NCBI GenBank assembly: GCA_036507075.1
Contig: DASXQR010000075.1
Span: forward strand, 1 to 13,213
Origin: Acidobacteriota bacterium
GTDB lineage: Bacteria > Acidobacteriota > UBA6911 > JACQSX01
Direction of reading: 5' to 3'
DNA: 13,213 bases
Shown here: positions 131 through 13,213 of the stretch, piece by piece
Layout: each line of letters starts with the position of its first letter
How positions within the stretch are numbered: position 1 is the first letter of the stretch
Translations under genes and position numbers: made by a program
Notes under the pieces: model-generated
The model's database searches: none
What the model was told of the DNA's origin: nothing
What the model saw: the letters and a program-made list of their open reading frames with translations, nothing else

Positions 131-181
131 TACTACAAAGGACACAAAGATCTTTTGTGCTCTTTGTGCCTTTGTGGTGAA
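131..181. repeat. Degenerate copy of the 9-nt-periodic palindrome (family P)
   Basis: TTTGTGCCTTTGTGGTGAA at 163-181 is identical to 10087-10105. The central CACAAAGATCT is also shared with the 10043-10105 copy. The left arm is shortened. Confidence 0.85.
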
Positions 182-191
182 CGCGTTTTTT

Positions 192-1001
192 TCATTTGAG
201 GATGAGCTTTGAAAGATCGCACGGAGGCGCAGGGAATTTCATGTCGAGGCTTTCCAGGGCTTCGACGATGATGGCCGAAACGGCAAGGTTTCTCAGCCAT
301 TTCTTGTTGGCCGGGATGACAAACCAGGGAGCCCGTTCCGTGCTGCAGCGGCTGAGCGCGTCCTGGTAGGCTTCCATGTATTGGTTCCACAGCTTTCGCT
401 CATCAAAATCCCCCGGATTAACCTTCCAGTTCTTTTCGGGAACCTCGATTCTTTCCCTCAGCCGCTTTTTTTGCTCGTCCTTGCTGATGTGCAGAAAGAA
501 CTTGAGGATCTTGACGCCGTTCTCGGCCAGAATCTGCTCAAAAGCGTTGATCTGCTCGTAGCGCCGGGACCAGACCGGGCGCGGGACCAGGTGGTGCACT
601 CTCACGACCAGGACATCTTCGTAGTGCGATCGGTTGAAAATGCCGATTTCTCCCCTGGCCGGAACCGCGTGATGCACCCGCCACAGGAAATCATGGCTTG
701 CCTCTTCGGCCGATGGGGCTTTGAATGAAGTGACTTCGCAGCCCTGAGGGTTTACCCCGGACATCACGCGCCGGATGGTGCCGTCCTTTCCGCCCGAATC
801 CATGGCCTGCAAAACGACCAGCAAGGCGTGCTTCCTTTCGGCGAAGAGAAGATTCTGCAGCTCATCCAGGCGCGCGATTTTCTTCTGCAGGAGCTCTTCG
901 GCCTCGCTCTTATCCTTGAAGCCTGCCGTGTAGTCCGGGTCATAACGGGAGAGCTTTACTGTCTTTCCGGGTTTGACGGCAAATTCCTTGCTGAATTTCA
1001 T
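192..1001 (-). CDS. ppk2: Polyphosphate kinase 2 family protein (single-domain, class III-like polyphosphate:nucleotide phosphotransferase)
   Basis: 269 aa. Walker A-like QAMDSGGKDG, plus NPQG, SFKAPS, HDFLWR, FNRSHYEDVL, KFFLHISKDEQ, KNWK and APWFVIPANKKW, all PPK2 hallmarks. Confidence 0.95.
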   Translation of the reverse strand: MKFSKEFAVKPGKTVKLSRYDPDYTAGFKDKSEAEELLQKKIARLDELQNLLFAERKHALLVVLQAMDSGGKDGTIRRVMSGVNPQGCEVTSFKAPSAEEASHDFLWRVHHAVPARGEIGIFNRSHYEDVLVVRVHHLVPRPVWSRRYEQINAFEQILAENGVKILKFFLHISKDEQKKRLRERIEVPEKNWKVNPGDFDERKLWNQYMEAYQDALSRCSTERAPWFVIPANKKWLRNLAVSAIIVEALESLDMKFPAPPCDLSKLILK

Positions 1002-1156
1002 GTTTCCACTGTGCGCGAGCGGCCAGCGCCGGGCCAGTATAGTTCAATTTGAAACAGGAGGAGGGGGCGCGCGCCGGGATTTTTCACAAGATCAGAACGG
1101 CGGGCGTCATCCCGCGGTTGGGGTTTAGACATTTCTGACGAACGATAATGTCGGGT

Positions 1157-1274
1157 CAGTACCGCCGTCAGGTTGCGGCGAGCCAGAGTGGCGTGTCTGG
1201 AGGTGGGACCTAGCGTGGCTTAGCATGAGACTCGACCAGTTTGGCGCGCCGCGACCTGATGGATCGCGGTACTG
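1157..1274. repeat. REP-doublet-like long imperfect inverted repeat
   Basis: CAGTACCGC..TCAGGTTGCGGCG..GCCA (1157-1191) pairs with TGGC..CGCCGCGACCTGA..GCGGTACTG (1236-1274). The outer 9 bp are perfect. Confidence 0.7.
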
Positions 1275-1297
1275 TAGCGCTGCTTCGCAGCGCCCTC

Positions 1298-1537
1298 GCC
1301 CGCCGCATTTGAGCGGGCGCCAGCTCGTGGTCCAAGGCGTCCTCCGAGGCGGCTGTCGCCCACCAAAAAAACGGTGGGCTCACGGTTCTGGAGGGCTCGG
1401 TCCCACGGCTCCGCTTCGCTTCGCCGTGGGCTACAGGCTGTCGCCCGCCCAAAAAACGGGCGGTCTGATTAAATGATCTTCGCGTTCTTCGCGCTCTTCG
1501 CGGTTAGATTTTTTCACACGGGCTGACGCCCGTGGGT
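1298..1537. repeat. Cluster of REP-like GC hairpins plus a family P half copy
   Basis: Hairpins CCCACGGC/GCCGTGGG (1402-1430) and CACGGGC-TGAC-GCCCGTG (~1518-1535). Two related GGCTGTCGCCC..AAAAAAC.. stem-loops at 1351-1380 and 1436-1466. CTTCGCGTTCTTCGCGCTCTTCGCGGTT at 1478-1505. Confidence 0.7.
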
Positions 1538-1596
1538 GCGGGGCGGATTGATGTGTAATAGAATTCATGTCAAATCAACCGAGCGGAGGAAGGTCA

Positions 1597-3156
1597 ATGG
1601 TTCAGAGATCGGTTCGCCTGTGGGCGGCGTGGGGGGTTTGTGCGGTTGTTTTGACGGCGCTGGCGGGGCGTTGGGGATTGTCCATTGAGCCTGCTTACCG
1701 TGTGCCGCCGGCGCTTGCGAGCGCGCGGGCCGCCGGTCCCGACCCGAAGCCGGCGCCGAATATTGTGTTTATTCTGGCCGATGATCTCGGGTGGAAGGAT
1801 GTCGGGTATCACGGCAGTGAAATCAAGACGCCGGCCATCGACCGGCTGGCGGCGTCGGGCGCGCGGCTGGAGCAGTTTTATGTGATGCCCGTGTGCAGTC
1901 CCACGCGCGCCTCGCTGATGACAGGCCGCTACCCGATTCGCTACGGATTGCAGACCGCCGTGGTGCGGCCATGGGCCCAGTACGGCCTGGCTTTGAATGA
2001 ACGGATGCTGCCGCAGGCGCTCAAGGAAGCCGGATATGAAACGGCGATCACCGGCAAGTGGCATCTGGGACATTACCAGCGCGCCTACCTGCCCACTTTG
2101 CGCGGATTTGATCACCAGTATGGCCATTACAACGGGGCCATCGATTATTTCACGCACGTGCGCAACGACAGCTTTGACTGGCACCGCGACGACCGCGCCT
2201 CGCGCGACGAAGGCTACAGCACCAACCTGATCGCTCAGGAAGCGGTTCGAGTGATTGAGCAGCACGACCGGTCGCGTCCTTTATTTCTTTATGTCGCCTT
2301 CAATGCGCCCCACGCGCCCCTGCAGGCTCCGCCGGAATATCTGGAGCGTTATGCCGGCATCGCCAATGAAAGGCGGCGCGCCTATGCCGCCATGGTTGCG
2401 TGCGAGGATGACGGGATTGCCCGGATCCTGGCGGCCCTGGAGGGCAAAGGGATTTATGACGACACCTTGATTGTTTTTTCAAGCGACAACGGAGGGCCGC
2501 TGCAAAACGGCGCAGATAATGGGCCGCTGCGGGCGGGCAAGGCGACGGTCTACGAAGGAGGCGTCCGCGTGCCGGCCTTTGCCGTATGGCGCGGCAAGCT
2601 GAAGCCCGGAATCGTCAACGAGCCGCTCCACATGGTCGACTGGTATCCGACATTGCTCCGGCTGGCCGGCGCCCGCCTGGAACAGAAGCTGCCGCTGGAT
2701 GGGAAAGATGCCTGGGCCACCGTCGCGCGCGGAAAACCTTCGCCTCATGACGAGATCCTTCACAACGTCGAGCCGGGTCGCGGCGCCCTGCGGCGCGGCG
2801 ACTGGAAGCTGGTCGTGCATGCCCCGCTTCCGATGGCAAACGCGGCTCTGGCGTCGCTGCCGGCGAATGCCCCGTCGCCGGCTTCGGATGCGGCCGCAAA
2901 TCGGGCACGACAGCAGGGTGCGCGGTCCGGTGAAGTGGATGAAGAAGGAAACGATCGGGGCCCGGCGCGCATCGAGCTGTTCAACATCAGGCAGGACCCT
3001 TACGAGAAGCAGGATTTGTCGCGCGCGCGTCCTGAAGTGGTGCGCGACCTGCTGGCGCGCTTGAACCGCTACGCGCGCCAGGCAGCGCCGGCAAAGTACG
3101 AGTCAAAACCGGCGCCCGGATTCAAGACACCGGCCGTGTGGGGAGAAAAGGAATAA
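1597..3156 (+). CDS. Arylsulfatase (formylglycine-dependent sulfatase, arylsulfatase B-like), probably exported
   Basis: PNIVFILADDLG, signature CSPTRASLMTGRY, GKWHLG, APHAPLQ, FSSDNGG, YEGGVRVP, ELFN..DPYE, and an N-terminal hydrophobic signal or anchor. ATG 1597 preferred because GGAGG lies at 1585-1589. The ORF track starts at 1567. Confidence 0.95.
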   Translation: MVQRSVRLWAAWGVCAVVLTALAGRWGLSIEPAYRVPPALASARAAGPDPKPAPNIVFILADDLGWKDVGYHGSEIKTPAIDRLAASGARLEQFYVMPVCSPTRASLMTGRYPIRYGLQTAVVRPWAQYGLALNERMLPQALKEAGYETAITGKWHLGHYQRAYLPTLRGFDHQYGHYNGAIDYFTHVRNDSFDWHRDDRASRDEGYSTNLIAQEAVRVIEQHDRSRPLFLYVAFNAPHAPLQAPPEYLERYAGIANERRRAYAAMVACEDDGIARILAALEGKGIYDDTLIVFSSDNGGPLQNGADNGPLRAGKATVYEGGVRVPAFAVWRGKLKPGIVNEPLHMVDWYPTLLRLAGARLEQKLPLDGKDAWATVARGKPSPHDEILHNVEPGRGALRRGDWKLVVHAPLPMANAALASLPANAPSPASDAAANRARQQGARSGEVDEEGNDRGPARIELFNIRQDPYEKQDLSRARPEVVRDLLARLNRYARQAAPAKYESKPAPGFKTPAVWGEKE

Positions 3157-3170
3157 CGCCCTGCGATTCG

Positions 3171-3244
3171 CAAAAACCTAACCGCCAAGAACGCCAAGAA
3201 TAGCTCTCTTGGCGGTCTTGGCGATCTTGGCGGTTAGGTTTTTG
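3171..3244. repeat. Family P palindrome between convergent genes; probable bidirectional terminator or 3' stabiliser
   Basis: Perfect 20-bp inverted repeat CAAAAACCTAACCGCCAAGA (3171-3190) / TCTTGGCGGTTAGGTTTTTG (3225-3244), with internal CGCCAAG/CTTGGCG units. It overlaps the RNB stop codon at 3234-3236. Confidence 0.85.
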
Positions 3245-5102
3245 TACCGTCCAGCTCAAAATCGATAAATCCCTGGCGCGGGTCTGTCGAGATCAGTTTG
3301 ACGCGGACGCGGTCGCCGACCTGAAGGCCTTCGACGTTGCCGTGCAGTTTTCCTTCCACGGGCGGATGGGCGATCCGCACCCAGGTGCCTTTTTCCGAGG
3401 CGCCGGTGATCATGCCGTTGAATCTCTTTCCGATGCGGGGGCGCAGCGCCACCGCGGCGATGCATTTGCGCACGAAGCGCTCCACCTTGTTTGCGTCGTC
3501 TTCCTTCTGCGTGCAGTGGGCGGCCAGCGCCTCCAGTTGGTCCATCGCGTAGGAGGAAGGCTGGCGCGCGAAGGCGCATTTCAGCAGGTGCTGGGTCAGC
3601 AGGTCCGGGTAGCGGCGGTTGGGCGCCGTCGAGTGCGCGTAATCCTGCACGGCCAGCCCGAAATGCCCGGGCGATTCCTGTCCGGGGTTCTTGACCACGT
3701 ACTGCCCGCGGCCCAGCAGCTTGATGATGGCCAGCGACAGGTCGGGAAAATGTTCCGGATCGCGGCGCTGCTGTTCCTTCAGGAATTCCTCCAGCGCGGG
3801 CGCGTCCGGCTCGGCGGGAAGGCCGGCGCCGTGCTCGCCTGCCAGCTCGACGATCCTGTCCCAGCGCTCCGGTTCGCGCACGATCCGCCGGATGCTGGGA
3901 AGCCCGCGGCCGTCCAGAAAGCCGGCGGTGGTCTGGTTGGCCGCGATCATGAAATCTTCGATCAGCCGGCCGGCGCGGTTCGGCTCGCGCGAGGCCAGGT
4001 CGAGCGTGCCGTCCGGCAGCAGGGCGGGGCGGAACTCGCGGGTTTCGAAATTGAGCGCGCCTGCTTCGTGGCGGCGCTCGCGCAGGCGGGAGGCGGCTAG
4101 GTCCTGGAGCGTGAGTTGCCGCTGAAGGGGTGGATCCGAATCGATCTTTTCAAGGATACGGCGTCCAACGTCTGAAGGTCGATGAGAGTCTGACAGGAAA
4201 TCCGAGCCGCGCGCGTCAGCAAGCGGACTCTCCGGAGAGGGTTTGGTTGGCATGGCGAAGTCGACTTTCTCTGGAGGCTCCGCTTGCTGACGCGCGCGGT
4301 TCTGTTGTGGGTGGAGAAGTGTCGCATTCTCCGGCGCTTGCTGACGCGCGCGGTTCGGTTGCGGGCGGAGAGGTGTGGCATCCCCCGGCGCTTGCTGACG
4401 CGCGCGGTTCTGTGGGAGCTCGCTCACCCGCTCTCCCGCTCTCCCTCTCTCCTTCCCTCCATCCCTCCCTCTCTCCATCTCTCCCTCTCCCGCACTCTCC
4501 CGCCCTCCATCCCTCAATCTCTCTGTCCCTCCTTCCCTCCGTCTCTCCATCCCTCCATCCCCGAACCGCTCCAGCCATTCCGCCACGGCGTTGTAAGTCA
4601 GTCGCGCGCGGTTGCAGACGATGGCGGGGTAGACGGAGGATTGAGTGACGCGGCCGTCTTGACTGGTCAGCATTTCGACGACCACAGCCAGTCTCTTCTC
4701 GCTCTCGACTAAAGAAGTCAAATCGGTGGAGAGGCGCTCGGGAAGCATGGGGAAGGTTTCCACGCCTGTATAGACGGAAGTGGTGTTGTGCTGCGCGGCT
4801 CGATCCGTGTCCGATCCGGATGGCACAAACCAGCTCACGTCGGCAACGGCGACGTAGATTCGAATCGCTTCGCCTTCGGCGACGGCATACTCGAGTTGAT
4901 CCAGATCGCGCGTGTCGTCATTGTCGATGGAAGACCAGAGCCAGGCGCTCAGGTCGGTCACCTTCAGGCTGGAGAAATCAGGTTCGGCGGCGCGCGCGAC
5001 CTCCTGGCGAACCGGCGGCGGGAACTCGGTCAGAAAACCGCGCTCGCGCATCGCCTGACGGGCAACCGCATGCAGGTCGACGCCCGACTGCGAAACACCC
5101 AT
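3234..5102 (-). CDS. RNase II/RNB-domain 3'-5' exoribonuclease with C-terminal S1-like domain, carrying a ~120-aa repeat-derived insertion
   Basis: SIDNDDTRDLDQ catalytic loop, VAVADV, TSVY..FPMLPERLS, LIEDFMIAAN, HFGL..YAHSTAPNRRYPDL and a C-terminal GFIDF. Residues ~181-303 are low-complexity and repeat-encoded. Confidence 0.93.
   Translation of the reverse strand: MGVSQSGVDLHAVARQAMRERGFLTEFPPPVRQEVARAAEPDFSSLKVTDLSAWLWSSIDNDDTRDLDQLEYAVAEGEAIRIYVAVADVSWFVPSGSDTDRAAQHNTTSVYTGVETFPMLPERLSTDLTSLVESEKRLAVVVEMLTSQDGRVTQSSVYPAIVCNRARLTYNAVAEWLERFGDGGMERRREGGTERLRDGGRESAGEGEMERGRDGGKERGRAGERVSELPQNRARQQAPGDATPLRPQPNRARQQAPENATLLHPQQNRARQQAEPPEKVDFAMPTKPSPESPLADARGSDFLSDSHRPSDVGRRILEKIDSDPPLQRQLTLQDLAASRLRERRHEAGALNFETREFRPALLPDGTLDLASREPNRAGRLIEDFMIAANQTTAGFLDGRGLPSIRRIVREPERWDRIVELAGEHGAGLPAEPDAPALEEFLKEQQRRDPEHFPDLSLAIIKLLGRGQYVVKNPGQESPGHFGLAVQDYAHSTAPNRRYPDLLTQHLLKCAFARQPSSYAMDQLEALAAHCTQKEDDANKVERFVRKCIAAVALRPRIGKRFNGMITGASEKGTWVRIAHPPVEGKLHGNVEGLQVGDRVRVKLISTDPRQGFIDFELDGTKT
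4204..4410. repeat. Intragenic REP-like cluster: three direct 22-bp cores at 54-bp period plus one inverted copy
   Basis: CGCTTGCTGACGCGCGCGGTTC at 4281-4302, 4335-4356 and 4389-4410. The inverted copy at 4207-4227 is a perfect 21-bp complement of 4279-4299. Confidence 0.9.
4420..4562. repeat. Intragenic CT-rich octamer array (TC(C/T)CTCC(A/C/G)-like)
   Basis: About 140-bp polypyrimidine tract with ~8-nt period. It encodes GDGGMERRREGG...RAGERVSE in the RNB frame. Confidence 0.9.
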
Positions 5103-6137
5103 TTACAATCTCCGCAGCACTCGTTCCCACCACGGGCGTTTTGGAAACTTCAAGGGAGGAATGTATTCAAGGGGAGCATCCTTGAGCAAACGGGCCGCCA
5201 GATGGCGGATGTCCTGAGCCGCCCGGCTGCGCGGGTACCTGGGCAAAAACGGCTGCACCTTCTGCACGGATTCGGGCACGTGCGGATCAAAATGCACAAA
5301 CCCGAGAAAACCCAGATTGCTTCTCAGTTGCAGATAGCGAAACAGCAGGTTGTTGAAGTTGGTGAGAGCCCGCTTGTCGGTTCGCCTTCCCCGGTACATG
5401 TTGACCACGATCTTGACCTTGAGATCGTTGATCATTCCACTCAGAATGTAGCCGGCGTACAGGTCCCAGAGCTTCAACTGCTCGATCACGTTCCTCAGGT
5501 TGAAGTCCTCTTTTCCTTCCACCAGTTCTCTCAGCTTGGCGCGCACCGCCTGCAGAAAATCCTTCTGCTCCAGCTCGCGCAGCACGAAATGCATGATGGC
5601 GGTTTTGAGAAACAGGAAAGCGTTGTGCAGCGAAAGGGATTCCGGAGTGATCACGACGATCTTGTGATCGGCGCTCAGAAAAAAGTCGAGCACCTCGGGG
5701 GAAGTTCCGGCGCCCAGGTCAAGCAGCACGAATCGGGCGTCCAGGCCGCGCAGGTTTTCGAGCAGCTCCCCCTTTCGCTCCCGGTCCGGCTGCGCTTCTT
5801 CCAGGCGGTAAGAGCAACTGATCATCTCCAGTGACGGCTGTTCGGTGCGCGACAGGATGGGCGAGAGGCTGGTGGTGCGTCCCATCAAAAAATCGCTGAT
5901 ATTTCCGCTGGGGTTGCGCACTCCCATGCAGGTGTTCAGGTTGCCGCAGCCGAGATCCAGATCGACGGCGACGATTTTCTGATGGCGCGACGCCGGATCC
6001 GCGGCCAGGGCATGCGCCAGGTTGGCGGTGATGACCGTCTTGCCCACGCCGCCCTTGCCGCTGGCAATGGCGACGATCCGTCTGTCCGGACGCACCGCCC
6101 GTTCAATGACCGGCTCCGTTAGTGCTTGCGAATTCAC
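5103..6137 (-). CDS. MinD/ParA-family P-loop ATPase, FlhG/FleN-like
   Basis: Deviant Walker A SGKGGVGKT, DLDLGCGNL, LLDLGAGT, VVITPE and IVVNM. The C-terminal PWWERVLRRL resembles an amphipathic membrane-targeting helix. GTG start. Confidence 0.9.
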   Translation of the reverse strand: MNSQALTEPVIERAVRPDRRIVAIASGKGGVGKTVITANLAHALAADPASRHQKIVAVDLDLGCGNLNTCMGVRNPSGNISDFLMGRTTSLSPILSRTEQPSLEMISCSYRLEEAQPDRERKGELLENLRGLDARFVLLDLGAGTSPEVLDFFLSADHKIVVITPESLSLHNAFLFLKTAIMHFVLRELEQKDFLQAVRAKLRELVEGKEDFNLRNVIEQLKLWDLYAGYILSGMINDLKVKIVVNMYRGRRTDKRALTNFNNLLFRYLQLRSNLGFLGFVHFDPHVPESVQKVQPFLPRYPRSRAAQDIRHLAARLLKDAPLEYIPPLKFPKRPWWERVLRRL

Positions 6138-6171
6138 GAGGATTTAGTCAGAAGTAAAAACGTCACGGGCG

Positions 6172-6180
6172 ATGCTACCA
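6172..6180 (-). promoter_or_regulatory. Candidate extended -10 (TGgTAGCAT) for the ATPase-RNB transcript
   Basis: Reverse complement of ATGCTACCA, about 35 nt upstream of GTG 6137. Motif match only. Confidence 0.35.
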
Positions 6181-6185
6181 TAAAT

Positions 6186-6356
6186 GTCGTCCGTGGTCAG
6201 TGGTCCGTTGTTAGTTGTCCGTTGTTCATGGTTTTCCCCTGTGGAAACCTGGCTTGGTGCCTTTGGTGGTGAAAAAGGATTGAACCACCAAGACACCAAG
6301 CCAGCCCCCTCCAACGGACTACTGACCACGGACCAGGGACTACGGACTACGGACAA
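6186..6356. repeat. Nested repeat: inverted heptamer arrays (GTCCGT(T/G) / ACGGAC(T/C/A)) enclosing a family P inverted repeat
   Basis: Heptamer arms at 6186-6227 and 6312-6356 are mutually complementary. The inner CTGGCTTGGTGCCTTTGGTGGT (6249-6270) pairs imperfectly with ACCACCAAGACACCAAGCCAG (6284-6304). Confidence 0.85.
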
Positions 6357-6382
6357 AATAGGGTGCAACGACGGGCGCATCC

Positions 6383-6391
6383 TGCTACAAT
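6383..6391 (+). promoter_or_regulatory. Candidate extended -10 (TGcTACAAT) for the protease gene
   Basis: Near-consensus TGn-TAnAAT upstream of the protease start. Confidence 0.45.
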
Positions 6392-6454
6392 CCACGAAAG
6401 CAAAACATACCGTGCTGATCCGTGAAACTGCGTAAAGGCAATGAGGATAAATCA

Positions 6455-7054
6455 GTGAATCTAGAAGATCATCTGCGGTCGCTGACGGGGAAAGAAACGG
6501 CCGCTCCCGCAAGCGCTCCCGCCGCCAAGGAGCTTTCAAGAAACGCCGATCCGGGTATTGTTTCCATTACGGCCGATGATCGCGCCGGCAAGGGCTTCAT
6601 CGTGGATGAAGAGGGCAGGATTCTCACCAACTTCCACCTGATCAACGCGGCATCGCGCATCAAGGTGACCCTGTCTTCGGGCGATATTTTTCTGGGCAAG
6701 GTGGTGCGCAAGGACGCCGCCCGCGACCTGGCGCTGCTGCAGATTCCCACCCGCACCTCGGGGCATCTGGCGTTGGGCGACGCGGGCAGCGTGGATGTGG
6801 GCGAGGAAGTAATGATTCCCGGTCCCAGGGCGGGAGAGCGATCAAGCGGCGTGATCAGCGCGATCCGCAAGATCAACGGGACGCAGATCCTTCAGATCGA
6901 TATGCCTTTGGATCCGGCAAACAGCGGCTGCCCTGTGATGACTTCGGCGGGCGCGGTTGTCGGCATCAGCACCTTCAAGCTGGGACACCAGCAAAACAGC
7001 GGCGGCACCGCCGTCAGCGTCAACGAGTTGAAGGCCTTTATCTTTGGGTTGTAG
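6455..7054 (+). CDS. Trypsin-like (S1C/HtrA-type) serine protease domain protein, without PDZ domain or signal peptide
   Basis: Triad motifs ILTNFHLI (His), RDLALLQI (Asp) and DMPLDPANSGCPV (Ser), plus GKGFIV and VVGIST. GTG 6455 has GAGGA at 6443-6447. The ORF track starts at GTG 6422. Confidence 0.85.
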   Translation: MNLEDHLRSLTGKETAAPASAPAAKELSRNADPGIVSITADDRAGKGFIVDEEGRILTNFHLINAASRIKVTLSSGDIFLGKVVRKDAARDLALLQIPTRTSGHLALGDAGSVDVGEEVMIPGPRAGERSSGVISAIRKINGTQILQIDMPLDPANSGCPVMTSAGAVVGISTFKLGHQQNSGGTAVSVNELKAFIFGL

Positions 7055-7185
7055 CCCGCGGTTCGATCAAGAAAAGAATTAACCGCCAAGAGCGCGAAGA
7101 GCGCCAAGAAAGCGCAGGGGACTGGGCTACTTTGTGCTCTTGGCGTTCTTTGCGGTTCATTCTTTCTTTTGACCGAACGGGGCTA
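7052..7185. repeat. Family P palindrome with extended arms spanning the whole convergent intergenic region; probable bidirectional terminator or stabiliser
   Basis: Left arm TAGCCCGCGGTTCGATCAAGAAAAGAATTAACCGC versus reverse complement of the right arm TAGCCCCGTTCGGTCAAAAGAAAGAATGAACCGC. Inner CGCCAAG/CTTGGCG units. Confidence 0.8.
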
Positions 7186-8934
7186 ACGCTCCAGCACTCC
7201 CTTCCGAAACATCAGCGTCTCAATTAAGGTGGGCGGGATGGTGCCGTAGCTGAGCAGTTCTGAGTGGAAGTTCTTCAGCTTGTATTTTTTCCCCTGCTTT
7301 TTTTTGTACTCGGCGCGGATGCGTGTGATCACTTCGCGGCCGACCAGGTAGCTCAGCGGCTGGGTGGGGCTGGTGGTGTAGCGCTTGACTTCGCCGATGG
7401 CGCCCGGCTTGTCCAGGCGCACCTCTTCGGTCAGCATGTTGACGGCTTCATTGAACGTCATGGTCCCGGTGTGCAGTTCCACGTCGATCAGCACGCGCGC
7501 GGCGCGCACCAGCGTCCACTGCAGTTGCACCAGGCGCTCTTCGGGCGTGTAGTATCCGTTTTCCGAGAGCAGCTCCTCGGAATAAAGCGCCCAGCCCTCG
7601 GAAAAGATCGAGCTGGAGAGCACTTTCTTGACCGTCGATTCGGCCTGATTGGCGTAGACGAACTGCAGGTGATGGCCCGGATAAGCTTCATGCACCACGG
7701 TGTTGACGATGTCTCCGTGGCTGTGTCCCTTCAATTGCTCGGCCTGTTCTTCGGCCGGTTTGCCGGTGTCAACGGGGGTGACCGTGAAGTACCCGGTCTG
7801 ATCCTTTTCAAACGGCGCCGGGCTGAAATACTGGGCGTAAGGCACCGTGCTGCGCTGGAAGAGCGGCGTTTCGATGATCTGCAGCTTCTCGCCGGCGGGG
7901 ATTTCCACCAGCTCGCGCTTTACCAGGAAGACCCGAGCGCGGGCCGTCTCCTTGCGGTACTCCTCGAGCAGCGAAGGGGCGTCGGGATGGTGCAGCTTGG
8001 CCGCGTCGAGCACCGCTTTCCAGTCCCTGGCCGGATCAATCAGTTTTGCAATGTCGATCAGTTGCTTGCGGGTGCGGTCGAAGAGGATGCGGCCCATCGA
8101 GTTGAGCTGGTCGCTCCCTTCGTCCATCAGGTAATTGTTTTTCAGATAAAACTCGAAGTTCTCCTTGCCCGCGCGGAAGTCGCCATCGGAGCGCCGCAGC
8201 AGGTCATCCTTGAGGAAAGCGAGATAATCGCGATAGGCGTCGGCCGCATTTTTGCTTTCCTGCGCCAGGGACTCCTTCAGCGCGGGGACGTTGGCGGCCA
8301 GTCCGGACACCACGCTTTCGAAAAAGTCGACGCTGCCCTGCGTCGACTCGATCGCAATTTCCGTCCAGATGCGCGGCGGGTTGCTCAGGGTGCGTTTGCC
8401 GGCTCCAAGGACGCGCGGGATCTGCTGCATGCGGGTGATGATCTGCTTGAGGCGCGTTTCCAGGGGCGCGTATTCGCGCGAGGCCATCAGGAAAACTGCC
8501 GTGGTGGCGGCATCGGAATAAAGGCTGGGAGTTTTCTTCCAATATTCGACTTCGTCAATGTCCTTGACGGTGACCCGCAGCGAGCCCTGCAGGACCCGGT
8601 AATCGGCCTGCGCGGAAATCGGCATTGAGGCGATCGGGATGGCTTCCAGTTCGGCCAGGTATTTTTTGGCCATTTCACTCTGCGCGTGAAAACCATCGGC
8701 CGAGAAATCGCCCAACTGCTCGTCATATTTGTGGATCCCCAGCATGGTGGCCAGGACAGGATTGAGGCGGGTGACGTCTTCCAGCCAGCGCGCCACCAGT
8801 TGATCGAATTTCTGCTGCTCGGCGCCGCTGGGCCTTGGCTGGTCGTTTTTATTCTGGGCCGCCAGAAGGAACGCCTGTCCCGCAAGAAGAATCGCGAGAA
8901 GCATTGCTTTTCCGGGTATTCTTGAGATATTCAT
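7183..8934 (-). CDS. DUF885 family protein (putative exported zinc metallopeptidase-like)
   Basis: 583 aa with a signal-peptide-like N-terminus. Motifs P..AT.LG.H.YD..L.D.S, HEAYPGHHLQ, FSEGWALYSE, RAARVLIDVELH, EVKRY...PTQPLSYLVG and FH..LL.YG..P are typical of DUF885. Confidence 0.92.
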   Translation of the reverse strand: MNISRIPGKAMLLAILLAGQAFLLAAQNKNDQPRPSGAEQQKFDQLVARWLEDVTRLNPVLATMLGIHKYDEQLGDFSADGFHAQSEMAKKYLAELEAIPIASMPISAQADYRVLQGSLRVTVKDIDEVEYWKKTPSLYSDAATTAVFLMASREYAPLETRLKQIITRMQQIPRVLGAGKRTLSNPPRIWTEIAIESTQGSVDFFESVVSGLAANVPALKESLAQESKNAADAYRDYLAFLKDDLLRRSDGDFRAGKENFEFYLKNNYLMDEGSDQLNSMGRILFDRTRKQLIDIAKLIDPARDWKAVLDAAKLHHPDAPSLLEEYRKETARARVFLVKRELVEIPAGEKLQIIETPLFQRSTVPYAQYFSPAPFEKDQTGYFTVTPVDTGKPAEEQAEQLKGHSHGDIVNTVVHEAYPGHHLQFVYANQAESTVKKVLSSSIFSEGWALYSEELLSENGYYTPEERLVQLQWTLVRAARVLIDVELHTGTMTFNEAVNMLTEEVRLDKPGAIGEVKRYTTSPTQPLSYLVGREVITRIRAEYKKKQGKKYKLKNFHSELLSYGTIPPTLIETLMFRKGVLER

Positions 8935-8960
8935 TCCGATCTTTTTACCACAAAGATACC

Positions 8961-9287
8961 CCGAATGCGGATTTCGGAATGCGGAACCTACCGAATGCGG
9001 ATTTCGGAATGCGGAACCAACCTAATGCGGATTTCGGAATGCGGAACCTACGGAATGCGGATTTCGGAATGCGGAATGCGGAATGGTTGCAGATCCGGGC
9101 CATAGTGGTCAAATCAGAACTCGCGTTGTCTATTTCACAAGCGAAAGTTCGTTTCTGCTCCCATTCGAAAAACGCCTCCCTATTCCGCATTCCGCTATTC
9201 CGCATTCCGCATTCCGCGATCCGCATTTGAAACATTCCGCATTCCGGGATCCGCATTTGAAACATTCCGCATTCCGAAATCCGCATT
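8961..9287. repeat. Large inverted GCGGAAT/ATTCCGC heptamer arrays organised as 30-bp units around a ~96-bp unique core
   Basis: Left arm has four 30-bp units starting at 8961, 8991, 9021 and 9051, each with the invariant core AATGCGGATTTCGGAATGCGGAA. Right arm has units at 9203, 9233 and 9263. 9265-9287 is the exact reverse complement of the 23-bp core. Confidence 0.95.
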
Positions 9288-10022
9288 TTAGGAGCGTTTC
9301 CAGACCAGTGGAATCCCGCAGACGGTCGAAACCGTCATCAACCCCCCGAACACCATCAGCAACCCATACCCCCACATCCTGCCGGCCCGCGACTGCGAAT
9401 ACTCCATGATGTGAAGCCAGGAATACATTCGACGGTTGATCCGCTGCCGGGGGTTCATTTTCACGATCAAGTTTCCGGTCCGCGGCGAAATTAAGCAAAG
9501 CCATTTGCCCGACGGGCCCTCCAGCAGGGCGCGATAGACGGGCAGTTCGAGGTGAAACGAAGGATAATCAATATCGAAGCGGTCCTGCACTCTCCACTCC
9601 ACCATTTTTGCGCCGCGCCCGGCAGCCTGCATGGCGAGCTCGGAAGCCTCAATTTCCCCGATGCCAAGGAAGGGATCTGCCGAATTGGCGTCGAAGGTTC
9701 CGCCGGCTCCATTGATCCATTGCACATCGTAAAGCTGCCGGTTGCCGCAGACGCGGTACTGCACCGAGCGGATCGATTCGGTCGGGAAGCTGCGCAATTT
9801 GAGCGTGTCCAGGAGATGGGCGATCGAGGTGGTGGCGTCCTGAACGGGAAGTTTTAAGGGATCGGGCGGCATGTTGACCATCAGCCTCTGGACGGGTGGA
9901 GTCTCGCGGGCGGCGCGCCGGAAATTGTTCCAGGAAAAAAAGATGCCGCTTATCAGCCAGGCCAGCATCTGCAGAAAGACGATCGGCGCCAGCCATCGGT
10001 GCAACGTTCTCAAAGTAGGCAT
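9288..10022 (-). CDS. PepSY-associated TM helix domain membrane protein
   Basis: N-terminal LRTLHRWLA + TM helix (W.ISG), a central extracytoplasmic region with LPVYRA..ISPRTG, and C-terminal WLHIMEY + TM helix. Confidence 0.8.
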   Translation of the reverse strand: MPTLRTLHRWLAPIVFLQMLAWLISGIFFSWNNFRRAARETPPVQRLMVNMPPDPLKLPVQDATTSIAHLLDTLKLRSFPTESIRSVQYRVCGNRQLYDVQWINGAGGTFDANSADPFLGIGEIEASELAMQAAGRGAKMVEWRVQDRFDIDYPSFHLELPVYRALLEGPSGKWLCLISPRTGNLIVKMNPRQRINRRMYSWLHIMEYSQSRAGRMWGYGLLMVFGGLMTVSTVCGIPLVWKRS

Positions 10023-10042
10023 AGAAGTGTCCCAAATGATTT

Positions 10043-10105
10043 TTCACCACAAAGGCACAAAGGGCACAAAGATCTCTTCGTGTTCTTTTGTGCCTTTGTG
10101 GTGAA
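10043..10105. repeat. Best-preserved family P palindrome
   Basis: Perfect 19-bp inverted repeat TTCACCACAAAGGCACAAA (10043-10061) / TTTGTGCCTTTGTGGTGAA (10087-10105), 8 nt downstream of the add stop. Confidence 0.9.
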
Positions 10106-10112
10106 CTCGTTT

Positions 10113-11174
10113 TTACATCAACAACCGCCGAATCTCTCCGCGCTCTTCTTCCCCCAAAAACGCATATCCCAGCGTCCTCCGTGTCATCTCCACAAACTGC
10201 TCCGGAAACCACCCCAGAATCTGCGCCGCCAATTCCCACTCCCGCTCCAGTGTCGTCTGCAACAACCCCGGATCATCCGTATTCACCGTAAACGGAATCC
10301 CCGCCCGAACTATTTCAACAATCGGGTGCGTCCTTATTCCGCATTCCGCCTTCCGCACTCCGCCTTCCTTCCCCCACTCTCCCGAAACAGCCCCGGTGCG
10401 CCAATTACTCGTAATGGAAAGATCCAGGGCCAGATTGTTGCGCTTCAAATAGTCAACCAGCATCGGATCCTCCAACGCGCGTATCCCATGCCCGATCCGT
10501 TCTGCCCGCAATTCCTCGATAGCCCCCCACACACTGCGCGCATCACAGATTTCCCCGGCATGCGCCGTCCGATGCAATCCCGACTTTTCCGCCGTCTCGA
10601 ATACATCCCGAAACGCGCGCGCCGGAATGCTCGCCTCATCCCCGCCGATGGAAATTCCAACCACTCCCCGGTTCTGATACCGCGTCGCCCACTCCAGCGT
10701 TTGCCAGCACGGGTCCGGCCCCCACTGCCGCACGCAGTCAAAAATCCAGCGCGCGTGCACGCCGCTTCGCGAAGGGCTGGACGTACGCTCCAGCACCGCT
10801 TCGATGACCTCTTCGACGGGAAGGCCGAAGCGTTTGCAGATAGATGGCGTAAAAAAGATCTCGGCATAAACGCAGCGCTGATCCGCGAGCTGCTGGATCA
10901 ACACGCCGGCCAGGCGGCCGTAATCTTCCGGCCCCTTTAAATGTTCGCAACAGACCTTGTAAGCATTGAGAAATTCCGAAAACGTGCGAAACGCATACAG
11001 CTCTGAAACAAGGTCCTCCCCTTCCTTGCCCAGCGAAGTCCCATAGCGCCGCGACAACTCCCGCAAAAACCCAGGACCCATCGCCCCTTCCAGGTGTACG
11101 TGCAGCTCCAGCTTGGGGATCTGGCGCAGTTCAAACGCTGTCCGTTGTCCGTAGTCGGTTGTCCGTTGCCTCAT
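10113..11174 (-). CDS. add: Adenosine deaminase (adenosine/adenine deaminase family)
   Basis: PKLELHVHLEG, YAEIFFTP, IGGDE, TAHAGE, AERIGHG, TSN and TVNTDDP metal and catalytic motifs are intact. ATG 11174, with alternative TTG 11198. Substrate (adenosine, adenine or aminofutalosine) cannot be determined here. Confidence 0.92.
   Translation of the reverse strand: MRQRTTDYGQRTAFELRQIPKLELHVHLEGAMGPGFLRELSRRYGTSLGKEGEDLVSELYAFRTFSEFLNAYKVCCEHLKGPEDYGRLAGVLIQQLADQRCVYAEIFFTPSICKRFGLPVEEVIEAVLERTSSPSRSGVHARWIFDCVRQWGPDPCWQTLEWATRYQNRGVVGISIGGDEASIPARAFRDVFETAEKSGLHRTAHAGEICDARSVWGAIEELRAERIGHGIRALEDPMLVDYLKRNNLALDLSITSNWRTGAVSGEWGKEGGVRKAECGIRTHPIVEIVRAGIPFTVNTDDPGLLQTTLEREWELAAQILGWFPEQFVEMTRRTLGYAFLGEEERGEIRRLLM
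10336..10384. repeat. Intragenic ATTCCGC heptamer array (4 units) plus CT-rich tail inside add
   Basis: ATTCCGC ATTCCGC CTTCCGC ACTCCGC at 10336-10363, the same unit as 9182-9287. It encodes part of GEWGKEGGVRKAECGI. Confidence 0.85.
11139..11166. repeat. Intragenic TGTCCGT heptamer array (4 units) at the 5' end of add
   Basis: TGTCCGT TGTCCGT AGTCGGT TGTCCGT, the same family as 6186-6356. It encodes QRTTDYGQRT. Confidence 0.85.
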
Positions 11175-11271
11175 CAACTTCGCGCCTTCGCGGTTCAATT
11201 AACTGCGAGGGCAACCGTGCCTGTAGAGGGTGATGCTTCAAATCTACCGGCTGCCGATTAGCCACGCTGCT

Positions 11272-11363
11272 TTCACCGCAGAGACGCCAAGTCCGCCGAG
11301 GTCTCGCAGAGTCTGCATCCAGGCTCTGCGAAAACTCAGCGTGTTCTGCGACTCGGCGGTGAA
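11272..11363. repeat. Family P palindrome, CGCAGAG variant
   Basis: TTCACCGC (11272-11279) / GCGGTGAA (11356-11363) ends, with four ~9-nt units per arm (CGCAGAG, CGCCAAG, CGCCGAG, CGCAGAG versus CTCTGCG, CTCAGCG, TTCTGCG, CTCGGCG). Confidence 0.8.
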
Positions 11364-11434
11364 TGCAACGTTGCCGTCTACACAGACCCGTAATCGTGGC
11401 AATGCACTTGCTGGTTATGCATTATGCCAACTGG

Positions 11435-11550
11435 AACCCGGCAACCCGCAACTCGCCAACCCGCCAACCCGCCAACCCGCCAACCCGCAACTCGCCAACC
11501 CGGCAACCTTCAACTGACAACGGACCACTGACACCACTGACAACTGACTA
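11435..11550. repeat. GCCAACCC octamer array fused to an ACTGAC(A/C) heptamer array
   Basis: About 10 units of (G/C)CAAC(C/T)CG at 11435-11508, then ACTGACA ACGGACC ACTGAC..ACTGACA ACTGACTA at 11513-11550, ending on the GntR stop codon. Confidence 0.9.
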
Positions 11551-12636
11551 ATCGTAAAGCTGGATCTCCCGAATGGTGGCGATCGTCTCATCCGAGATAA
11601 AACTCTGATACGTCTTCAATTCCACGTGCGCGGGCGTGATTTTGCGCATCTGGTCCCAGCAGGCCGGCGTCACGTAAATGGTTTCCGCTTCATTCAGTAT
11701 TTCCTCCAGCAGCGGCTCATTCTTGATGGGGCAGATGAAGAATTTTTTGTCCGTGGATGGATGGAAAATGGTCATGTGCACGTCCCAGGGCGCGTGCATG
11801 GTATTTTCGTCGCGCACGATCAGCGCCACGTTGCGCGTGCGGGCCGCCTCCAGGATTTCCGCCGAGATCAGCGGGTTGGGCCGTATCTCCAGCACCGGCT
11901 TCTGAAACCGCGTCGCCAGCTCCTTGACTTCATCCATATGCCAACTGGTCGTCATCAAGTACTCCGACTTCTGCACCGCCTCCACCAGCTCTGGACTCAA
12001 TGCGGCCCGTCTATCTCCCGCTCTCCCACTCTCCCCCTCTCCCTCTCTCCATCTCTCCTTCTCTCCATCCCTCCTTCTCTCCCTCTCTCCATCTCCCCCT
12101 CCCTCCCTCGCTCCATCTCCCACTCTCCCACTCCCCGGCTCCCCCAGCGCCAGCACATAGACCTCGGCCGGCGCCGCCCTCTCCCGAATCTCGTTTGAAA
12201 AAATATTCGCTTCTTCTTCGTGATCGACCACGGTCACCACGATCCGTCGAAGGTTTTTGCCGGTGCTGAGATTTTCAATCAGCCCTTGCAGCTTCTCGGG
12301 GGAAAGCCCCAGGCCGCGCGCCTTCTCCAGGGTCTCGGAGATCAGCTTGTGTATGGCCTTGCGCCGCATCCGGTCGTAGCTTTGCGGATCGCGCTCGCGC
12401 ACGAAAACGCCGCTGGCCTTGCGCACGTCGACGTAGTTTTCCTGCGACAGCTTCTGGTAAATGCGCTGGGCCGATTTCAGATTGATTCCCGCATGCAGCG
12501 CCATTTCCCGCACCGAAGGAAGCCGGTCGCCAGGCTTGAGTTTTCCCGTGTAAAGCCCCGAAATCACCTGCCCCTTGACCTGCTCATACAAAGAAAGCCC
12601 GCAATCCTTGTCCAGGTTAAACCGTATCTCGGTCAT
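11548..12636 (-). CDS. GntR family transcriptional regulator (YtrA-like wHTH plus long C-terminal effector region) with ~45-aa repeat-derived insertion
   Basis: LYEQVKGQV...GKLKPGDRLPSVREMA...IN...R.Y..L...YV..RKASGVFV winged HTH. About 230-aa alpha/beta C-terminal region. Confidence 0.92.
   Translation of the reverse strand: MTEIRFNLDKDCGLSLYEQVKGQVISGLYTGKLKPGDRLPSVREMALHAGINLKSAQRIYQKLSQENYVDVRKASGVFVRERDPQSYDRMRRKAIHKLISETLEKARGLGLSPEKLQGLIENLSTGKNLRRIVVTVVDHEEEANIFSNEIRERAAPAEVYVLALGEPGSGRVGDGAREGGGDGERERRRDGEKERWREGEGESGRAGDRRAALSPELVEAVQKSEYLMTTSWHMDEVKELATRFQKPVLEIRPNPLISAEILEAARTRNVALIVRDENTMHAPWDVHMTIFHPSTDKKFFICPIKNEPLLEEILNEAETIYVTPACWDQMRKITPAHVELKTYQSFISDETIATIREIQLYD
12010..12145. 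repeat. Intragenic CT-rich octamer array inside gntR
   Basis: Polypyrimidine tract with ~8-nt period. CTCCCTCTCTCCATCTCTCC at 12039-12058 is identical to 4465-4484. Confidence 0.9.
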
Positions 12637-12645
12637 AGAATTAAA

Positions 12646-12675
12646 AGGTTACAAGCTCCCCCTCACTCCTGACAA
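12646..12675 (-). promoter_or_regulatory. Candidate sigma70 promoter of gntR (TTGTCA-N18-TAACCT), near-leaderless
   Basis: -35 is the reverse complement of 12670-12675 and -10 is the reverse complement of 12646-12651. Only 9 nt separate the -10 from the ATG, and there is no SD. Confidence 0.4.
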
Positions 12676-12686
12676 GCCCAAATCCC

Positions 12687-12716
12687 TCCCTGTGTCCCCT
12701 GTGTCTCTGTGGTGAA
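12687..12716. repeat. Family P half copy (CTGTGT variant)
   Basis: CCCTGTGTCCCCTGTGTCTCTGTGGTGAAA ends in the family's GTGGTGAA terminus. Confidence 0.7.
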
Positions 12717-12801
12717 AATCTTTTACCTGCAATATCTTACGACTTCCACCCCCGCCCCCGATGAACTATTCCACCCTGTCCCCCATCTCACACGAAGGGG
12801 G

Positions 12802-12810
12802 TGCTATACT
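12802..12810 (+). promoter_or_regulatory. Candidate extended -10 (TGcTATACT) for the last gene
   Basis: Near-consensus motif upstream of AGGGAG (12822-12827) and TTG 12839. Confidence 0.5.
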
Positions 12811-12838
12811 TTGTACCCATCAGGGAGTGTTTCAAGCT

Positions 12839-13213
12839 TTGAAAAATCTACTTTCTTTGCCACAGAGCAACCGGCGGATCCTTTGTGTCCTTGGTGTCTT
12901 TGTGGTTATTTTTACGTTACAAATCTCTGCCTTCTCCCAAACCGCCGAAGTCAAACAAGGCTCTCATCTCAAGGTGCGTCTCTCTCGCGAGATCTCCACT
13001 AAGACTGCAGAAAAAGGAGAAGATTTCGATTCCGCCCTGACCGAAGATTTCGGATCAGAAGACCGGGTGCTCATTCCCAAGGGAAGCATTCTGAAGGGAA
13101 CCATCGTGCGTGCCATGCGCGCCGGCCGTCTCCGCGGCCGGGCCGAGCTGGCGCTTCATTTTCGAAAGGTGGAACTTCCCACCGGCGAGAGTTTTGACAT
13201 CAGCGCCACGCCG
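12839..13213 (+). CDS. Partial exported protein with VirB10/TrbI-like beta domain (runs off the window; absent from the ORF track)
   Basis: My translation of frame +2 has no stop: MKNLLSLPQSNRRILCVLGVFVVIFTLQISAFSQTAEVKQGSHLKVRLSREISTKTAEKGEDFDSALTEDFGSEDRVLIPKGSILKGTIVRAMRAGRLRGRAELALHFRKVELPTGESFDISATP. It has a signal peptide (A-F-S|Q) and a VRL...IST.TA..G..F / VLIP.GS...G pattern like TrbI-like domains. The start is uncertain (TTG 12839 or GTG 12827). Confidence 0.75.
   Translation, partial: MKNLLSLPQSNRRILCVLGVFVVIFTLQISAFSQTAEVKQGSHLKVRLSREISTKTAEKGEDFDSALTEDFGSEDRVLIPKGSILKGTIVRAMRAGRLRGRAELALHFRKVELPTGESFDISATP

What the first reader, a model, noticed from the sequence alone, without database searches (positions are those of the whole stretch)
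131..12908. Multi-family repeat system found both between genes and in frame inside intact genes
Seen: at least five unrelated short-repeat families occupy nearly every intergenic gap, and four genes carry repeat DNA in frame without stops. These are RNB 4194-4562, add 10336-10384 and 11139-11166, gntR 12010-12145, and the last gene 12858-12908. The heptamer and P families occur both inside and outside genes. Catalytic motifs of the hosts look intact. Known precedents: Rickettsia palindromic elements insert in frame, REP/BIME arrays are spread by RAYT HUH transposases, and cyanobacteria have heptamer STRRs. Inference: several families are being converted into new peptide loops in parallel by a trans-acting spreading mechanism that is not encoded in this window.
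Basis: partly seen in the sequence, partly recalled or inferred. Interest (0 to 1): 0.85.

Follow-up and report, generated by a model that had tools for sequence, protein, structure and literature searches.

The report
Competence-linked repeat cassettes seeding proteins
A soil Acidobacteriota genome is littered with short repeats that occasionally become tolerated protein loops or export signals, and the small genes that probably spread them share a predicted promoter with the cell's DNA-uptake genes, which suggests, untested, when they move.

Summary
The repeats and in-frame inserts are real. GntR (+45 aa), ADD (+14 aa) and RNB (+110 aa) carry repeat DNA that family orthologues lack. Internal inserts are rare: 5 of 697 conserved genes, none broken, against 3,339 of 3,884 blocks intergenic. 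The same loops in PurL and MtaB hold different repeats in relatives, so they look like tolerated junk, as with Rickettsia elements. The last gene is different: the repeat arm forms its signal-peptide core, as in about 20 genes. The scan had already noted in-frame repeats, repeat-made signal peptides and these cassettes on other DNA.

The new result concerns the candidate spreaders. GxxExxY, four-helix-bundle and Y1-transposase genes are flanked by these repeats. 21 of 25 such loci carry a two-box promoter-like motif that also precedes dprA, comEC, comEA, comF, comM, radC, a pilin, recA and ssb. A variant marks competence genes and cassettes in other families of the class, but not outside it. 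Mobilisation during competence is inferred. No read check was possible.

The parts
131..181 (.). 9-mer P-family hairpin, intergenic
   Evidence: same arm flanks and begins GxxExxY genes
1350..1465 (.). REP-like hairpins of the family flanking the Y1 transposase at G000:C107:37567
   Evidence: by-eye comparison with flanks
1477..1531 (.). Q 9-mer arm plus small REP hairpin
3171..3244 (.). Q 9-mer inverted pair between convergent genes
   Evidence: I12; family flanks GxxExxY C83:12885
3234..5102 (-). RNB-family exoribonuclease host, 622 aa
4194..4562 (-). In-frame composite insert in RNB: octamer array 4423-4561, three REP copies at 54-nt period 4281-4413, inverted REP 4204-4238; net +110 aa over family orthologues
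   Evidence: REP part folds with z = -5.6
6189..6354 (.). Inverted ACGGAC heptamer arrays around a nested 9-mer hairpin
   Evidence: family flanks four-helix gene C88:58600
7073..7156 (.). Q 9-mer inverted pair
8961..9288 (.). Inverted ATTCCGC heptamer / 30-mer arrays
10040..10105 (.). P hairpin between genes
10113..11174 (-). Adenosine deaminase host, ATG at 11174
10335..10376 (-). 42-bp in-frame insert (octamer plus heptamers), 14 aa where PDB relatives show a 14-residue gap
11139..11168 (-). ACGGAC heptamers read as the ADD N-terminal leader
11178..11548 (.). Intergenic mix of 9-mer arms, AACCCG array and ACTGAC heptamers
   Evidence: AACCCG family flanks four-helix gene C73:6269
11548..12636 (-). 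GntR-family regulator host, 362 aa
12010..12145 (-). In-frame purine-octamer insert, net 45 aa; this octamer family flanks four-helix remnants C231:4089-4401 and C82:21435
12688..12717 (.). Half P arm, intergenic
12880..12908 (+). P reverse arm read as the hydrophobic core (LCVLGVFVV) of the predicted signal peptide of the last gene (TTG 12839)
   Evidence: 4 family orthologues have non-repeat N-termini here

Best explanation
The repeats are the gene-less ends and internal-deletion products of small selfish cassettes: left arm, promoter, one small gene, inverted right arm. The genes are of three unrelated kinds: Y1 HUH transposase (IS200/RAYT-like), GxxExxY PD-(D/E)XK-family protein, and Avd-like four-helix bundle. 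SHOWN: the cassette anatomy, deleted copies that keep the arms and promoter, thousands of intergenic copies, rare in-frame survivors, and a shared upstream motif. INFERRED: (1) the helpers copy the repeats in trans; (2) in this class the motif is an alternative-sigma promoter of the competence regulon, so helpers are made when imported single-stranded DNA and RecA, DprA and ComM are present; (3) copies landing in genes are purged unless frame-preserving and in a permissive loop or terminus, and such loops are refilled repeatedly; (4) the 9-mer arm happens to encode a hydrophobic run and has taken over the signal-peptide core of roughly 15-20 exported proteins.
For: Anatomy and family pairing; deleted derivatives. 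Repeat density: 2,110 of 3,402 gaps against 5 of 697 conserved genes and no repeat-broken gene. Same loop, different fill: PurL 105/134/82/47/29 aa and MtaB 71/143/185/43/35 aa. Motif: 61 sites at 23 bits or more against 0 in five column-shuffled matrices; ATG exactly 5 nt downstream at 13 of 61; targets named by Pfam and NCBIfam; 21 of 25 helper loci against 48 of 4,877 called genes. In relatives: 7 of 10 family cassette loci score above 20 bits; G002 sites precede ssb, uvrD, dprA and a Y1 gene, identified from translations. A class variant gave 23 sites in 17 of 137 genomes (control 1); of the 20 not used to write the pattern, 11 precede pilus or competence genes and 4 precede mobile genes. 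Signal peptides.
Against: The motif was first seen upstream of the helpers, so 21 of 25 is partly circular. It was not found in 228 Acidobacteriota genomes outside the class or before 66 GxxExxY loci, nearly all from other lineages, most of which start just after a host stop codon; only 3 of 45 upstream genes scanned were competence genes. Competence is therefore not needed for such cassettes to exist. 0 of 37 cassette loci outside the family reach 20 bits with this matrix. No cognate sigma was found: none of 34 sigma genes has a site upstream. No helper was found for two of the inserted families. No activity is known to me for GxxExxY or four-helix proteins on these repeats. There are no reads, RNA or peptide data.
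Confidence: 0.6

Rival explanations
1. Hitchhiking promoter: the cassettes captured the competence promoter because it keeps them silent most of the time. Repeats spread by host recombination and slippage, with no special role for competence.
For: GxxExxY cassettes of other lineages are mostly promoterless passengers of housekeeping genes; tandem arrays vary in length as slippage would give.
Against: Three unrelated gene families, and integrase-like genes in G002, all carry the motif; composite inserts join families that slippage cannot create.
Confidence: 0.25
2. Host-serving system: the helpers are domesticated parts of transformation, for example acting on incoming DNA at repeats that work as uptake or recombination tags.
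For: Shared motif with dprA, comEC, comM and recA; RAYTs behave like housekeeping genes elsewhere (bioRxiv 10.1101/119735, passages).
Against: Many helper copies are frameshifted or truncated. Families turn over between genera: the P 17-mer has 329 copies in G000, 13 in G003 and 0 in G001, G002 and G004. Repeats are strongly excluded from genes, unlike Neisseria/Pasteurellaceae uptake sequences (recalled).
Confidence: 0.1
3. The internal loops are selected new protein parts.
For: Same sites are hit repeatedly; a heptamer-like PurL insert seems inherited in G001, G002 and G004 (by eye); the octamer family is enriched inside genes, 7 of 166 blocks against 2 of 1,266 for the 9-mer.
Against: No peptide conservation; loop lengths differ up to fivefold; empty alleles persist.
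Confidence: 0.07
4. Assembly artefact of a metagenome bin.
For: No read check was obtained; low-complexity arrays are error-prone.
Against: Independent assemblies show inserts at the same loops; all 5 inserts in conserved genes keep frame; the bin is 95.7% complete with 2% contamination.
Confidence: 0.03

Closest known systems
Rickettsia palindromic elements (RPE; as reviewed in PMC10969869, passages read)
   Same: Several repeat families lie in frame in unrelated housekeeping genes without breaking them.
   Different: RPEs are about 150 bp, nearly half lie in ORFs and each encodes a conserved peptide. Here under 1% of blocks are internal, inserts are variable 7-9-mer composites with no conserved peptide, and candidate helper genes are present.
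REP/REPIN-RAYT systems (PMC3116915 passages; PMC3479197 abstract; bioRxiv 10.1101/119735 passages)
   Same: Y1 HUH genes flanked by inverted palindromes that are abundant between genes; gene-less inverted doublets.
   Different: Two tested proteins score as IS200/IS605 TnpA and one as sub-threshold RAYT. Two further unrelated protein families show the same anatomy. The passages read name no promoter or competence link.
Heptamer repeats of Xanthomonas and Nostoc (PMC4692102, passages)
   Same: Intergenic 7-mers, often as inverted pairs near gene ends, under-represented in coding DNA.
   Different: Those are G-quadruplex-type units, and the term 'four helix' does not occur in that text. Here several heptamer families each flank a four-helix-bundle gene.
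Four-helix-bundle (TIGR02436, PF05635, 23S rRNA IVS protein) and GxxExxY (TIGR04256, PF13366) families
   Same: Helper proteins pass the family cut-offs.
   Different: Their repeat-flanked cassette form and shared promoter were not found in the library searched; the scan's own notes record the cassette form.
Alternative-sigma competence regulons (SigH of Staphylococcus and Lactobacillus; listings and abstract starts)
   Same: One promoter type ahead of dprA, comEC, comEA, comF, pilins, ssb and recA.
   Different: The motif differs, the sigma is unidentified, and about a third of the sites belong to selfish cassettes.

Membership tests
RPE-type coding palindromes | In-frame insertion in intact genes with empty orthologues | tested here: met
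RPE-type coding palindromes | Unit-length element with conserved peptide | tested here: not met
   inserts of 6-110 aa from different families and frames
RPE-type coding palindromes | Large share of copies inside ORFs | tested here: not met
   20 of 3,492 blocks of 20 nt or more are internal
REP/RAYT | Y1 HUH gene flanked by inverted copies of an abundant repeat | tested here: met
   for several families, including the window's 1350-1465 hairpins
REP/RAYT | A cognate RAYT for the GCGCGCG REP inside RNB | tested here: inconclusive
REP/RAYT | Protein passes the RAYT model | tested here: not met
   of 3 tested, 2 pass the IS200 model and 1 scores 43.8 against a RAYT cut-off of 80
REP/RAYT | Cleavage of REP single strands | not testable with these tools
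   needs biochemistry
Competence regulon | Shared motif before core uptake and recombination genes | tested here: met
   class variant
Competence regulon | Motif positioned as a promoter | tested here: inconclusive
   fixed two-box spacing and ATG at +5 in 13 of 61 sites; no transcript data
Competence regulon | Identified cognate regulator | tested here: inconclusive
   34 sigma genes, none with an upstream site
MITE | Target-site duplication | not tested
   orthologues at 60-80% protein identity are too distant to define it

The most novel reading that the evidence does not exclude
In this class of Acidobacteriota, three unrelated kinds of repeat-flanked mini-cassette have converged on the host competence promoter. 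They use the single-stranded DNA and recombination machinery of natural transformation to copy their repeats, and by doing so supply ready-made signal peptides to exported proteins, LptE among them.
Probability: 0.3. Interest if true: 0.85.

Novelty: new variant of a known kind. Interest (0 to 1): 0.64.

Why it matters
How REP-like and heptamer repeats multiply, and what the GxxExxY and four-helix-bundle proteins do, are open questions. A shared promoter names the condition (competence) under which to look for expression and movement, pairs each helper with a candidate substrate, and predicts a competence regulon for a class of Acidobacteriota. The in-frame loops mark insertion-tolerant sites in PurL, MtaB, GltB, ADD and GntR. 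The repeat-made signal peptides are a countable case of selfish DNA taking on a protein function.

Tried and rejected
Rfam: no match in the window. First matrix run drifted onto the 9-mer repeat through an offset error and was discarded; a relaxed regex with wrong spacing was uninformative. The 26 'broken' candidates looked like gaps between adjacent genes by eye and were not counted as disruptions. C144 proved to be an intergenic gap. Single-sequence fold of ADD was unusable (pLDDT 40). The ECF sigma at C17:71533 was considered as regulator because sites lie nearby, but it has no upstream site. The ECF classification supplement (PMC7826278; one file, cut when stored) gave no TCGCA hit, and motifs shown as figures or in the cut part were not seen. 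The cross-phylum test of cassette against dprA/comM promoters was not completed: only positions were obtained. SOS reading rejected: the annotated targets are uptake and recombination genes and no lexA or uvrA appeared among those scanned, though not all 61 downstream genes were annotated.
Full report
SETTING. The window is the whole contig C75 of a 6.12-Mb bin (233 contigs, 95.7% complete). Its closest GntR relatives lie in records titled Acidobacteriota. Four same-family genomes (G001-G004) and one same-order genome (G005) served as orthologue sources.

OBSERVATION. The families are real and genome-wide. A k-mer plus tandem-repeat mask gave 3,884 blocks covering 220 kb. Of these, 3,339 were intergenic, 278 touched a gene end and 36 were internal to a called ORF (my own gene caller, 4,877 genes). 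Of blocks of 20 nt or more, 20 of 3,492 are internal, in 15 ORFs; a few of these may be start-call artefacts. 2,110 of 3,402 gaps of 50 nt or more hold a repeat. The window inserts are absent from orthologues: GntR +45 aa (5 of 5), ADD +14 aa (4 of 4), RNB 149 aa against 39, 38, 16 and 16. The ADD insert falls where two PDB adenosine deaminases show a 14-residue gap.

HOW COMMON. I compared 1.88 Mb of G002 (about 54% of it; 1,543 ORFs) with G000. 697 orthologue-like pairs had 77 extra G000 segments of 5 aa or more, and 7 overlapped repeats. Five are genuine: GntR, ADD, glutamate synthase, MtaB and a 6-aa case. One was an intergenic gap and one is unclear. The single frame break held no repeat. 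Repeats at termini were flagged more often, in 26 C-tails and 24 N-leads, uncurated and partly artefactual. Coding insertions are therefore strongly purged, and this window, holding 2 of the 5, is an outlier.

LOOPS ARE REFILLED, NOT CONSERVED. The same PurL segment measures 105, 134, 82, 47 and 29 aa in G000, G001, G002, G004 and G005. The MtaB segment measures 71, 143, 185, 43 and 35 aa in G000, G001, G003, G002 and G005. Each is filled with different octamer and heptamer families. The ADD leader behaves alike. I infer tolerated sites rather than selected peptides.

SIGNAL PEPTIDES. The reverse 9-mer arm reads LCVLCVFVV in one frame, and the forward arm gives basic residues. Among 1,537 arm copies, ORFs that start before the arm and have no ATG in the next 40 codons number 27 in that frame, against 13 and 17 in the other two. 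In 20 of the 27 the most hydrophobic window overlaps the repeat. That overlap is partly built in, and no signal predictor was run. 13 of 18 hand-picked hosts hit Pfam families, mostly of kinds I know as exported: PQQ dehydrogenase, TonB-type receptor, LptE, sulfatase, BNR, FG-GAP, GWxTD, Ig-like. Orthologues of the window's last gene (4), C152:43767 (5) and C17:93910 (3) have ordinary N-termini at the matching position. The scan had noted this phenomenon in two other genomes.

CANDIDATE SPREADERS. G000 has 6 GxxExxY matches, 9 four-helix matches at 7 loci and 12 Y1 matches. Most are enclosed by inverted arms of one repeat family each: P and Q with GxxExxY; ACGGAC, AACCCG and the octamer with four-helix genes; REP hairpins with Y1. 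Internally deleted copies keep the arms, the upstream motif and gene stubs. All 5 of 41 genomes with the exact P 17-mer also have GxxExxY, which occurs in 17 of 41; kin are not independent. Elsewhere, 49 of 66 GxxExxY loci examined (of 80 fetched) have a 9-mer arm near the 5' end. No helper was found for the RNB REP, which is widespread in Bryobacterales and others.

SHARED PROMOTER. Upstream of the helpers lies AAAAWTTTTTCGCAGATTT, a spacer, then GGCCRGTTATGT. A matrix from 35 seeds finds 61 sites at 23 bits or more, against 0 in five shuffled matrices, and none in the window. 21 of 25 helper loci have a site, against 48 of 4,877 genes; this figure is partly circular. The non-circular result is that the motif also precedes ssb, comEA, recA, comM, a pilin, radC, comEC, comF, recQ, recG, uvrD and dprA (21 downstream ORFs plus 3 neighbours were scanned, not all 61). 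By eye, the motif lies inside the left arm in most cassettes. A strict pattern matches G000 15 times, G001 9 times and G003 3 times, and 0 times in 38 other genomes, with reversed controls at 0. 7 of 10 family cassette loci exceed 20 bits, and family dprA genes score 6, 19 and 36. A variant written from three sites gave 23 sites in 17 of 137 class genomes, control 1. The other 20 sites precede 5 pilins, 2 dprA (one by eye), radC, 2 pilM, a PilT-like ATPase, 2 four-helix genes, a frameshifted RAYT-like gene (by eye), a DDE transposase, 2 homologues of a G000 target and 3 unassigned stretches.

AGAINST GENERALITY. The pattern found 0 of 228 genomes outside the class. No site was found before the 66 GxxExxY loci, which mostly follow a host stop codon, and 3 of 45 upstream genes scanned (of 74 listed) were comM or comEA. 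The sigma factor is unidentified.

MECHANISM. Helpers expressed during competence would meet single-stranded DNA, the substrate of HUH enzymes (established knowledge; REP-bound TnpA structure, PMC3479197, abstract only), together with RecA and DprA. I infer copying of arms in trans, growth of arrays by slippage and recombination, and purging from genes except at permissive sites. None of these steps is shown.

LITERATURE. In-frame repeats are known (PMC10969869 and PMC3184786, passages). Heptamer pairs are described in PMC4692102 (passages). RAYT biology was read as passages in PMC3116915, PMC3686654 and bioRxiv 10.1101/119735; those passages give no competence link. PMC12378983 (passages) notes mobile elements induced during competence and transposition from transforming DNA needing RecA and DprA, but names no such promoter in the passages seen. 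Ten searches showed no listing on this motif or on cassette-competence coupling; the library lacks most subscription papers, and supplements were mostly unseen. Three word searches of the scan's notes for the promoter link found nothing.

VERDICT. The competence-type promoter shared by three cassette kinds is the new and testable part. Interest 0.64; new variant of a known kind.

Noticed in passing
G000:C17:68346-72967 (L082): ECF sigma, zf-HC2/TPR anti-sigma-like and CHAT/TPR genes beside an XRE regulator, with motif sites at 71573 and 72684 and recG nearby; a possible regulator locus.
   Followed up: partly
G002 loci L304, L250, L255: The motif precedes ORFs that read like integron integrases (by eye).
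   Followed up: no
G000:C97:18644-19270 (L071); L471; L478: A family with no Pfam or NCBIfam hit carries the motif in G000 and twice in G021; a candidate unknown competence gene.
   Followed up: partly
G001:C383:8760-10006; G003:C73:3253-4430: Broken GxxExxY genes lie directly downstream of dprA; in other lineages cassettes follow comM (L519, L529) and comEA (L552).
   Followed up: partly
L470:1651-2310: A four-helix-bundle suffix-domain gene carries its own flanking 9-mer repeat in frame inside itself.
   Followed up: no
G000:C6:1414-1558 and 8 similar pairs: P-arm pairs about 145 bp long enclose a second conserved inner hairpin: a nested gene-less element.
   Followed up: no
G000:C232:8682-10322: An UppP/BacA ORF runs on for about 270 further residues across heptamer repeats; possible read-through fusion or tail extension.
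   Followed up: no
window 3234-5102: The RNB family has SIDND(D/E)xRDLDQ at the active-site motif in all five orthologues, with Q where I recall an Asp in RNase II; found in only 4 of 40 relatives.
   Followed up: no
window 5103-6137: MinD/ParA-like ATPase gene ends one base from the RNB start; no repeat in this junction.
   Followed up: no
L385: A metagenome bin titled Bordetella parapertussis holds the acidobacterial REP; probably a mislabelled or mixed bin.
   Followed up: no
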